Positions 21,913-26,725 of a DNA stretch of 64,000 bases are shown here, one piece after another. Positions within the stretch are counted from its first letter, which is position 1; each line of letters begins with the position of its first letter. A program made the translations under genes and the position numbers. A model generated the notes under the pieces. The model did no database searches, was not told the origin of the DNA, and was given only the letters and a program-made list of their open reading frames with translations. Source of the stretch: Anolis carolinensis (taxonomy: Eukaryota); contig NC_085846.1 of the NCBI RefSeq assembly GCF_035594765.1, positions 6,249,190 through 6,313,189 of the forward strand, read 5' to 3'.

Positions 21913-22096
21913 CGGAGGCTTTCAAATACTCTTGAGCTGAGCCGAGGATGACGTTGCAGTCGCGGTCGGTGCAGAGGAAGCAGCCCACCAGGGTCCGCCC
22001 GTCGGTCATCCGGATGCGCATGCTCTTGTTGAGCAGGTTCTCCAGCTTGCGGCGGGCGCGCAGATAGGGCGGATCGGCCTTGTCCTCCACAAAGTC
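21913..22096 (-). CDS. NAA38: NAA38 exon 2 (…[39 protein letters not shown]…)
   Basis: Sm1 motif of NatC auxiliary subunit LSMD1/NAA38; AG/GT boundaries. Confidence 0.96.
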
Positions 22097-22563: not shown

Positions 22564-22845
22564 TCCATGCCTTGTCTCCAGGGAGTTCAATGCTGTGAGA
22601 CTGGAATATAAGTATAATAATATAAGTGGGATCAAAGCAACACCTAACCCAGTGAGTATGTTTCCCAGTCTCTAGTTCTTCAGGCCTTTGCACTCCAACT
22701 CCCAGAAGCCTCAGCTGCCTTGGCCAATGGATAGGGGTTCTGGGAGATGAAGTCCAAAATACTGTGGAGACCAGAAAAATCGCTCCCCGTCAAGGACATC
22801 TTTTTCGAGGGGACAACCCACCCCCACCCCCCAAAGCCTCCTTAC

Positions 22846-22920
22846 CCCAGGACCGGGGCTGTTCCCACAGCCGTTCTCTTCTCCCCTCGGCAGGGGGCCT
22901 GGAAGAGCAGGAGCCGCCAT
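22846..22920 (-). CDS. NAA38: NAA38 exon 1 (MAAPALPGPLPRGEENGCGNSPGPG)
   Basis: ATG at 22920, gtaag donor, phase 0; EENGC motif resembles the human N-terminus; total 123 aa. Confidence 0.85.
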
Positions 22921-23105
22921 TATCCCTTGCGCAGGCGCAATAGGCCTCGGCGGCCTCCTGTGCACAGGAAACAACGTCACGTCTATCACGTGACACAACT
23001 CGGCTTCCTCACGTTCCGTTGGTGGCCAAGTCGTGTCGCGTCACGTGATGGACGTGACGTCGTTTCCATGGCAGCGCTGGGCGTCCTTCCTCAACCGCAG
23101 CAGGC
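22921..23105. promoter_or_regulatory. CpG-rich bidirectional promoter NAA38/CYB5D1 (NRF1-like, two TCACGTGA E-boxes, CRE-like, RFX X-box-like)
   Basis: 185 bp between divergent ATGs; TGCGCAGGCGCA 22928-22939, TCACGTGAC 22986-22994, GTCACGTGA 23040-23048, GTTTCCATGGCAGC 23062-23075. Confidence 0.85.
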
Positions 23106-23232
23106 ATGGAGTCGTGCAGGCCGCGCTACTACACTCCGAAGGAGGTCTCGGTGCACAACCGGCCCGGGGACCTCTGGGTCTCCTATTTGGGCCGCGTCTA
23201 CGACCTCACCCCCCTGGCCGCCGCCAACAAGG
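23106..23232 (+). CDS. CYB5D1: CYB5D1 exon 1 ([42 protein letters not shown])
   Basis: Cytochrome b5-like N-terminal motif; g|gtgag donor. Confidence 0.92.
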
Positions 23233-23319
23233 GTGAGCATTTTCAGCAAAGTTAAAGATCCCGTCATTGTTGTCATTATTAGGATGCTACATAAGTAAAA
23301 ATAAAGTTTATATAGAGTA

Positions 23320-23858
23320 CTAGCTGTGCCCGGCCACGCGTTGCTGTGGCATTGTCTGGTGGTGTTGGTGAGAAATTGTTGAGGTAGTGGTGGTATTGAA
23401 TGTCTGTTGTATGGTTGTCTTTATGTTTAGTATGCACACTGAAGTGGATTATATGGCAGTGTGGAGTCAAGATAATCCAGTTCAAAGCAGATAATATAAG
23501 ATTCTAAATGGGTTATGTAGCTGTTTGGAAGGGCCTTGAGTCTACACTGCCATATAATCCAGTTAAAATCTGATAATCTGTGGAAGAGGCCTAAGTGAGG
23601 CCTAACTGTGCCTGTCCCCTGGGCTGAGTGAGTTGCTAGGAGACCAAGTGGGTGGAGCTTAGCTTTCAAACTGGCAGCAATTGGATAAAAACTATTATTC
23701 CTCTCCCTGTAATTAGAACTTTATTTTTCTTTTCTTTTTGTTGTATCAACCTAGAGCTGTGAATGATGGGTTGTGTTGTCAAATTTCGAGGTTGGGGGGC
23801 CTGTAGTTTTGTTGTTTTGTCCGCTGCCCTGATGCCATCACTCTTTTATATATATAGA
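23320..23858 (-). mobile_element. Non-autonomous Helitron
   Basis: 5'-TC start, 3' GC-rich subterminal segment then CTAG, inserted between A and T; same family as 61209-61542. Confidence 0.75.
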
Positions 23859-26648: not shown

Positions 26649-26725
26649 GTGATCTCTTGATGAAACCAATCCTAGAAGCAGCAGGGAAAGACATTAGCCA
26701 TTGGTTCAACCCCAAAACCAAAGAT
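26649..26725 (+). CDS. CYB5D1: CYB5D1 exon 2 ([26 protein letters not shown])
   Basis: tag acceptor, gtgagt donor, DISHWF motif. Confidence 0.95.

What the first reader, a model, noticed from the sequence alone, without database searches (positions are those of the whole stretch)
22967..23067. Mirror-symmetric bidirectional promoter: an inverted duplication gives NAA38 and CYB5D1 the same motif cassette
Seen: arm 1 (22967-22994) GGAAACAACGTCACGTCTATCACGTGAC versus reverse complement of arm 2 (23040-23067) GGAAACGACGTCACGTCCATCACGTGAC is 26/28 identical. Similarity continues inward (ACAACTCGGC vs ACGACTTGGC after a 5-nt indel), leaving a ~20-bp centre. Each arm has, towards its gene, an E-box (TCACGTGA, USF/TFE-CLEAR type), a CRE-like GTGACGT and an RFX half-site GTTTCC. 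Inference: either a promoter module duplicated in inverted orientation or arms homogenised by conversion; cruciform formation is possible. Such extended true symmetry is unusual for bidirectional promoters.
Basis: partly seen in the sequence, partly recalled or inferred. Interest (0 to 1): 0.7.

Follow-up and report, generated by a model that had tools for sequence, protein, structure and literature searches.

The report
Inverted-copy promoter between two lizard genes
In an anole lizard, the 185 bases between two back-to-back genes hold a single-copy 40-base stretch repeated in reverse, which likely arose from one DNA-copying slip that duplicated a cluster of predicted transcription-factor sites, a rare but not unique kind of event in this genome.

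Summary
The inverted repeat is real: arms 22967-23006 and 23028-23067, 34/40 identical (26/28 outer), lying between the start codons of NAA38 and CYB5D1 in a CpG island. It is far beyond chance (score 50; best of 1000 shuffles 26), single-copy in 1.85 Gb (not a MITE end) and spanned by contigs of independent runs. Positions outside the motifs also match (13/19), so the arms share an origin: most likely one template-switch copy, probably from the CYB5D1 arm to the NAA38 arm. All six mismatches avoid the 21 motif positions, a post hoc hint that both copies are constrained. The cassettes are not equal: a 12/14 RFX X-box lies only on the CYB5D1 side and an NRF1-like site only on the NAA38 side. 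Cruciform extrusion looks costly. The symmetry is rare, not unique: 2 of 147 control CpG-island loci carry comparable single-copy palindromes, and direct duplications are commoner. Spliced RNA contigs cover both arms, so each may also be 5' leader. Orthologous DNA was unobtainable; translated upstream stretches in other amniotes show no matching E-box. Verdict: new member of a known kind; modest interest.

The parts
22967..23006 (-). Arm 1 of the inverted repeat (NAA38 side); likely the copy
   Evidence: lacks three CpGs that arm 2 has; covered by spliced contigs joined to NAA38 exon 2
23028..23067 (+). Arm 2 of the inverted repeat (CYB5D1 side); likely the donor
   Evidence: its outer end runs on into the intact X-box; covered by spliced contigs joined to CYB5D1 exon 2
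23007..23027 (.). Spacer, 21 bases (20 bases, 23005-23024, in the 5-base-shift register); holds one more CACGT
22986..22993 (.). E-box TCACGTGA in arm 1 (USF/MiT-TFE type; assignment recalled, binding untested)
23041..23048 (.). E-box TCACGTGA in arm 2
22974..22983 (-). CRE-like / second ACGT-core element of arm 1 (TGACG half-site 22975-22979)
23051..23060 (+). CRE-like / second ACGT-core element of arm 2 (TGACG half-site 23055-23059)
23062..23075 (.). RFX X-box-like site, 12/14 to a recalled consensus; only its first six bases are inside the arm
22956..22969 (.). Perfect 14-base palindrome overlapping the outer end of arm 1, where the X-box is cut off (8/14 left)
   Evidence: background 17 in 56,889 positions of control cores
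22928..22939 (.). NRF1-like site, NAA38 side only, outside the repeat (motif recalled)
22846..22920 (-). NAA38 coding exon 1 (ATG at 22920, donor GTAAGG 22845-22840)
   Evidence: spliced contigs
21914..22093 (-). NAA38 exon 2, translated part (LSM domain)
23106..23232 (+). CYB5D1 coding exon 1 (ATG at 23106; next exon near 26649)
   Evidence: spliced contigs
22800..23300 (.). CpG island (GC 0.56-0.64, CpG o/e up to 1.15; flanks near 0)

Best explanation
The single-copy 40-base inverted repeat in the NAA38/CYB5D1 CpG island is likely the relic of one short-range template switch during replication that copied a cluster of predicted transcription-factor sites in reverse orientation. Shown: the repeat, its uniqueness, the two head-to-head genes, the motif content, the asymmetric extras, and that both arms occur in spliced RNA contigs. 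Inferred (about 0.8): common origin by local copying rather than independent motif selection. Inferred (about 0.6): direction arm 2 to arm 1, because the X-box is whole beyond arm 2 and cut at arm 1's end, and arm 1 has lost three CpGs and an ATG that would be in frame with NAA38. Inferred (about 0.55): both copies now act as ordinary double-stranded binding sites, with bHLH-ZIP (USF-type) and bZIP (CREB/ATF-type) dimers holding a shared nucleosome-free region open for both genes, while RFX adds a ciliated-cell input nearest CYB5D1 and NRF1 a housekeeping input nearest NAA38. On this reading the symmetry is a by-product of how the sites arose; the hairpin itself is not the working element.
For: Uniqueness: 2 matches at up to 3 mismatches in 1.85 Gb, both here; BLAST finds only self; no target-site duplication visible. 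Common origin: 13 of 19 non-motif positions match (binomial p 2e-4 at match rate 0.27), inner 12 bases 8/12 (p 0.004), 5 of 6 mismatches are transitions; among 9 genome-wide pairs of TCACGTGA 30-60 bases apart this one scores 50, the other 8 score 16-32. Constraint: 0 mismatches in 21 reader-defined motif positions against 6 in 19 others (Fisher p 0.007). Mechanism precedent: four-point template switches create new inverted repeats in one step; types 1-4-3-2 and 1-3-4-2 made up 31% and 23% of high-confidence human-chimp events (PMC5453318, passages); a 28-base event made the mir-4713 stem (PMC10710096, passages). Recurrence: L070 (47-base arms, 3 mismatches) and L084 (38-base arms, 7 mismatches) are single-copy CpG-island palindromes in the same genome. 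Mouse Cyb5d1 is listed 'Down low' in Table S1 of an Rfx1/2/3 knockout study (PMC7498320, one supplement row, genotype block not identified).
Against: No ancestral or orthologous DNA was obtained, so the four switch points cannot be fitted; origin, age and direction are inferred from one genome. The constraint test is post hoc: motifs were named after seeing the match, 4 of 6 mismatches sit in the inner 12 bases, and on the outer 28 alone it is 0/21 against 2/7 (p about 0.056, my hand calculation). No binding, reporter or start-site data exist for this locus. Spliced contigs cover the arms, so they may lie downstream of some starts, and the out-of-frame ATGs at 23048 and 23068 would then sit in the CYB5D1 leader. 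Rattlesnake and leatherback NAA38 extensions are compatible with a CRE-like 7-mer (19/200 and 5/200 shuffles), so part of arm 1's motif content could be older than the repeat, which fits correction of a pre-existing quasi-palindrome.
Confidence: 0.65

Rival explanations
1. Recurrent arm homogenisation: an old, loosely symmetric pair of E-box/CRE clusters is repeatedly corrected by template switching or conversion, so the outer 28 bases stay near-identical while the inner part drifts.
For: Identity steps from 26/28 (outer) to 8/12 (inner), and two registers exist for the inner part; the mechanism is documented in yeast (PMC8604942, abstract); a CRE-like word may be present upstream of NAA38 in a snake and a turtle; one 41-base, depth-1.9 contig of run X16 is a fold-back at the arm-2 E-box, probably a library artefact.
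Against: Mismatches persist in the outer part, three CpG losses are all in arm 1; none of 5 same-species runs laid shows a differing letter in the arms (contigs drop rare variants); none of 9 extended NAA38 homologues is compatible with TCACGTGA while the anole control is.
Confidence: 0.2
2. Neutral duplicate: the origin is as in the best explanation, but arm 1 is a functionless passenger and only arm 2 plus the X-box and NRF1-like site drive both genes.
For: Arm 1 carries the CpG losses and the cut X-box; local duplications are common in control CpG islands (direct repeats scoring 50 or more in 8 of 147), so they need no selection.
Against: All 21 motif positions, including three CpGs, are intact in arm 1 while 6 of 19 others differ.
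Confidence: 0.25
3. Convergence: selection assembled the same three motifs independently for each gene.
For: Mismatches fall only outside motifs; reviews describe a symmetric arrangement of factor sites in housekeeping bidirectional promoters (PMC10887517, passages).
Against: Identical spacing and 13/19 identity outside motifs; the composite GTCACGTSNNTCACGTG occurs 5 times in the genome against 3 for the control, so it is no favoured grammar; 8 other double-E-box sites lack such symmetry.
Confidence: 0.04
4. Structural switch: the repeat works by extruding a cruciform under divergent-transcription supercoiling, or as an RNA hairpin / pre-miRNA.
For: Single strands fold strongly (DNA z -5.5; RNA z about -9 for a molecule holding both arms); divergent promoters generate negative supercoils (PMC7999016, passages).
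Against: 21-base spacer and 15% mismatch; rough extrusion cost 79 kcal/mol, repaid only near sigma -0.07 (87), against 34 for L070; spacers and mismatches lower structure formation. No spliced contig holds both whole arms; no Rfam family at its gathering score.
Confidence: 0.06
5. Transposon relic (MITE terminal repeats).
For: The other 18 of 19 inverted repeats scoring 45 or more in this window look like members of high-copy repeat families by eye, so this is the prior in this genome.
Against: Single copy; no target-site duplication; CpG-rich and motif-dense.
Confidence: 0.02

Closest known systems
Short-range template-switch mutations, four-point model types 1-4-3-2 / 1-3-4-2 (Loytynoja and Goldman 2017, PMC5453318; Monttinen et al. 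2023, PMC10710096; passages seen)
   Same: Single-copy inverted repeat of tens of bases, short spacer, flanked by dissimilar sequence, later point mutations.
   Different: Those studies fit events against an ancestral sequence, which was not available here; the passages seen concern mutation clusters and miRNA stems, not duplication of a promoter cassette.
Vertebrate head-to-head CpG-island (bidirectional) promoters (review PMC10887517, passages seen)
   Same: Divergent genes under 1 kb apart, CpG island over both first exons, NRF1-like and E-box sites, a midpoint of symmetry.
   Different: The symmetry described there is of composition and site arrangement; here it is letter-for-letter over 40 bases and comes from copying.
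RFX X-box promoters of ciliary genes (PMC5838959, passages seen)
   Same: Imperfect palindromic X-box within a few tens of bases of the start of CYB5D1, an axonemal gene (PMC13505981, search listing only).
   Different: Binding untested in lizard; the copy toward NAA38 keeps only the half-site.
Quasi-palindrome correction / arm homogenisation (PMC8604942, abstract seen)
   Same: Near-identical inverted arms with a short spacer.
   Different: Predicts perfect arms after an event and concerted change across species; six mismatches here, cross-species test not possible.

Membership tests
Bidirectional CpG-island promoter | Two genes head to head with starts under 1 kb apart | tested here: met
   ATGs at 22920 (-) and 23106 (+), spliced contigs to exon 2 of each gene
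Bidirectional CpG-island promoter | CpG island over both first exons | tested here: met
   GC 0.56-0.64, CpG o/e 0.64-1.15 over 22800-23299
Bidirectional CpG-island promoter | Mapped divergent start sites and promoter activity both ways | not testable with these tools
   Only contigs were served; they cannot show starts or strand
Template-switch inverted repeat | Single-copy local reverse-complement copy, similarity beyond motifs and chance | tested here: met
Template-switch inverted repeat | A difference cluster against the ancestral or orthologous sequence explained by one reverse-complement fragment | not testable with these tools
   No orthologous promoter DNA obtained
MITE / DNA transposon terminal inverted repeats | Dispersed copies | tested here: not met
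   2 matches genome-wide, both arms; self only by BLAST
MITE / DNA transposon terminal inverted repeats | Target-site duplication flanking the arms | tested here: not met
   Flanks differ by inspection
Cruciform-forming palindrome | Near-perfect arms, short or no spacer, extrusion repaid at physiological supercoiling | tested here: inconclusive
   85% identity, 21-base spacer; rough cost 79 against relief 37 / 62 / 87 kcal/mol at sigma -0.03 / -0.05 / -0.07 (supercoil constant recalled, junction cost and kinetics ignored): unfavourable but not excluded
CLEAR element (TFEB/TFE3) | 10-base consensus around CACGTG (recalled) | tested here: inconclusive
   9/10 in each arm by inspection; USF reads the same site (recalled); neither gene is lysosomal by its annotation
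MHC-type S-X-Y module (RFX / CREB / NF-Y) | CCAAT Y box at fixed spacing from the X box | tested here: not met
   No CCAAT on either strand in 22800-23250
Known structured RNA / pre-miRNA | Match to an Rfam family at its gathering score | tested here: not met
   Best 24 bits against cut-off 100
Amniote-conserved element | Same cassette upstream of NAA38 in other amniotes | tested here: inconclusive
   0 of 9 N-terminally extended homologues (22-140 codons) compatible with TCACGTGA; 3 of 9 compatible with the CRE-like 7-mer; extensions may be spliced or mispredicted

The most novel reading that the evidence does not exclude
Template switching is a working route for promoter evolution: it copied a whole E-box/CRE cassette in reverse, both copies were kept by selection, and transcription starts at the centre so that each arm is the upstream activator of the opposite gene and at the same time gives both mRNAs a near-identical 40-base leader. 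About 1 in 75-150 anole CpG islands may carry such a palindromic module (L070, L084), forming an unrecognised, testable class.
Probability: 0.2. Interest if true: 0.62.

Novelty: new member of a known kind. Interest (0 to 1): 0.3.

Why it matters
As one locus it is a neat but modest case: a known mutation mechanism acting in a known kind of promoter. Its use is as a natural experiment. Two near-identical cassettes in opposite orientation, with one-sided extras, allow a clean test of whether site position or orientation sets the direction of transcription, and with anole relatives sequenced it can be dated. If the control result holds (single-copy palindromes in roughly 1% of CpG islands), template switching would be a measurable source of new transcription-factor sites, which the literature searches here did not show as studied.

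Tried and rejected
Orthologous DNA: runs of three other organisms (X21, X22, X24) laid at 80% likeness touched only coding exon pieces (X21, X24) or nothing (X22); a hole proves nothing. A metagenome scan gave 2 loci; L013 is a fish-like NAA38 gene with 186 bases upstream of its ATG and no E-box cassette or comparable repeat, but no CYB5D1 in view, so not a test; L014 was not examined. Searches with translations through the arms found nothing; CYB5D1 exon 1 gave 1 hit; no look-alike window in other genomes. Start sites: no listed holder is on record as RNA. X19 and X20 are spliced and their contigs end at 23035/23003 (NAA38 side) and 23027/23025 (CYB5D1 side), but both are one study and contig ends cannot show starts, so the central-start idea is not counted as shown. 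Rfam: no family. Composite motif as a favoured grammar: rejected. MITE: rejected. First control run (6 of 80 CpG-rich loci scoring 50 or more) was inflated by repeats; rerun with masking: 277 loci, 187 CpG-island-like, 40 dropped as repeat-dominated, 147 kept; inverted score 40 or more in 4 (L070, L098, L067, L084), 50 or more in 2; L098 and L067 look repeat-derived by eye and were not tested for copy number; masking also hides simple GC repeats, so counts are lower bounds. Genes beside L070 and L084 were not identified. Literature: no paper on this promoter in the listings (17 papers); PMC9435742 holds none of four promoter-related terms. Subscription journals and bioRxiv supplements were not searched and could hold anole start-site or chromatin data.

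Full report
1. Observation. The ungapped repeat is longer: 22967-23006 against 23028-23067, 34/40, 21-base spacer. The 5-base-shift register for the inner part (8/10, 20-base centre) is also present. The score of 50 compares with a maximum of 26 in 1000 dinucleotide shuffles. Contigs from runs X12, X16 and X17 span both arms without a differing letter in them, and 15 of 24 listed runs hold all sampled words, so it is not an assembly error.

2. Setting. NAA38 starts at 22920 on the minus strand and CYB5D1 at 23106 on the plus strand; 185 bases lie between the two start codons and the repeat's axis (23017) is close to their midpoint. The region is a small CpG island. NAA38 exons 1-2 match a record named Anolis carolinensis letter for letter. 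Each arm carries TCACGTGA, a second ACGT-core element with a TGACG half-site, and a six-base RFX half-site (motif names recalled). The cassettes are not equivalent: on the CYB5D1 side the half-site continues into a 12/14 X-box, on the NAA38 side it is cut to 8/14 at a point overlapped by a perfect 14-base palindrome (background 17 in 56,889 positions). An NRF1-like site lies only on the NAA38 side. No CCAAT box lies in 22800-23250.

3. Not a transposon. The 28-base arm occurs twice in 1.85 Gb at up to 3 mismatches, both here; BLAST finds only the locus itself; no target-site duplication is visible. This matters because the other 18 strong inverted repeats in the window look like repeat-family members (by eye).

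4. Common origin, not convergence. Of 9 genome-wide pairs of TCACGTGA 30-60 bases apart, the other 8 score 16-32. The two-core composite occurs 5 times against 3 for its control. Short-range template switching makes such repeats in one step (PMC5453318, passages; PMC10710096, passages); those authors favour inter-strand switches. I could not fit the switch points without an ancestral sequence.

5. Direction and constraint (inferred). Three mismatches are CpG in arm 2 and CpA in arm 1; a fourth removes, in arm 1, an ATG that would be in frame with NAA38. With the X-box whole beyond arm 2, this suggests arm 2 was the donor. CYB5D1 is an axonemal protein (PMC13505981, search listing) and mouse Cyb5d1 appears as 'Down low' in a table of an Rfx knockout study (PMC7498320, one supplement row and supplement legends; genotype not identified), which fits an old X-box on that side. 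All six mismatches avoid the motif positions (0/21 against 6/19, p 0.007). The test is post hoc and falls to p about 0.056 on the outer 28 bases (hand calculation), so it is a hint that both copies bind factors, not proof.

6. RNA. Runs X19 and X20 (one study; labelled RNA by guess, but their contigs join exon 1 to exon 2 of each gene) cover arm 1 in the NAA38-joined contig and arm 2 in the CYB5D1-joined contig. So the arms occur in RNA. Contigs show neither strand nor start, so I do not claim central start sites; if they are central, each gene's upstream cassette is the opposite arm, both leaders begin alike, and CYB5D1's leader holds two out-of-frame ATGs. No spliced contig holds both whole arms and Rfam has no family at threshold.

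7. Cruciform. Single strands fold well, but converting the duplex to two hairpins costs about 79 kcal/mol against rough supercoil relief of 37, 62 and 87 at sigma -0.03, -0.05 and -0.07 (constant recalled, junction and kinetics ignored). Spacers and mismatches reduce structure formation (PMC7999016, passages). Possible, unlikely to be the working principle.

8. How unusual. I sampled motif-anchored loci from the same genome: 277 loci, 187 CpG-island-like, 147 after dropping 40 repeat-dominated cores. Inverted repeats scored 40 or more in 4 and 50 or more in 2; direct repeats in 11 and 8, some of low complexity. L070 (47-base arms, 3 mismatches, no spacer, NRF1-like sites) and L084 (38-base arms, 7 mismatches, CCAAT and ETS-like sites) are single-copy; L098 and L067 look repeat-derived. 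Their genes were not identified. So extended symmetry is rare, of the order of 1%, but recurrent, and local copying of promoter pieces is common here. Earlier unchecked notes of this scan on tandem promoter modules in the same genome point the same way and are not counted as support.

9. Relatives. No orthologous promoter DNA was obtained. As a substitute I tested predicted NAA38 proteins whose N-terminal extensions translate upstream DNA. None of 9 (22-140 codons; 8 long enough to reach the anole distance) is compatible with TCACGTGA, while the anole control is; mammalian ones are compatible with a CGCG/BANP-type word and a python and a marsupial with a ZNF143-type word; 3 of 9, among them a rattlesnake and a turtle, are compatible with the CRE-like 7-mer. 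Back-translation is ambiguous and extensions may be spliced or mispredicted, so this only suggests a fast-changing promoter and a lineage-restricted arm 1.

10. Verdict. A real, single-copy inverted duplication of a binding-site cluster in a head-to-head CpG-island promoter, most likely made by one template switch and probably used as ordinary double-stranded sites. Known mechanism, known promoter type; I found no description of this locus in the searches (open-access library only). New member of a known kind, interest 0.3. The bolder reading (crossed layout with shared leaders, and a class of copy-made palindromic promoter modules) has probability about 0.2 and would deserve about 0.6.

Noticed in passing
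L070:329-422 (G000 C2, about 281,577,383-281,577,476): Single-copy near-perfect 94-base palindrome (47-base arms, 3 mismatches, no spacer) with an NRF1-like site in each arm inside a CpG island; rough extrusion cost only 34 kcal/mol, a better cruciform candidate than the finding. Gene not identified.
   Followed up: partly
L084:523-598 (G000 C3, about 237,932,657-237,932,732): Single-copy 76-base palindrome (31/38, all 7 mismatches transitions) with CCAAT and ETS-like sites in the arms, beside an E-box and a 36-base direct repeat.
   Followed up: partly
L007 / L302:4952-5021: Second double-E-box CpG island with partial symmetry (14 perfect bases plus 8 after a shift) and an X-box-like site about 200 bases away.
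   Followed up: partly
window 23041-23070, run X16 record 4: 41-base contig at depth 1.9 that is a perfect fold-back around the arm-2 E-box; probably a library artefact, but it marks the E-box as a natural switch point.
   Followed up: no
G000, e.g. L132/L133, L138/L139, L140/L141, L152/L153: A perfect X-box word occurs as same-strand pairs about 3-5.5 kb apart at many places (112 matches against 4 for the control), as expected of the two LTRs of a retroelement family carrying an RFX site.
   Followed up: no
L102, L109, L115, L128, L080, L098, L067: GC-rich, internally inverted repeat-like elements carrying NRF1-like or E-box words that mimic CpG-island promoters and inflate motif-based controls.
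   Followed up: partly
L199, L245, L275, L201, L188: Direct duplications of 45-195 bases in CpG-island-like loci, some including the YY1- or CGCG-type word.
   Followed up: no
window 23247 and 23249: Two differing letters in CYB5D1 intron 1 in run X16.
   Followed up: no
window 22687-22758 and 23442-23564: Repeat-like hairpin elements flank the CpG island closely on both sides.
   Followed up: no
P0137, P0100, P0090, P0092, P0049: Translated upstream stretches of NAA38 suggest different promoter words in different amniotes (ZNF143-type in a python and a marsupial, CGCG/BANP-type in placental mammals).
   Followed up: partly
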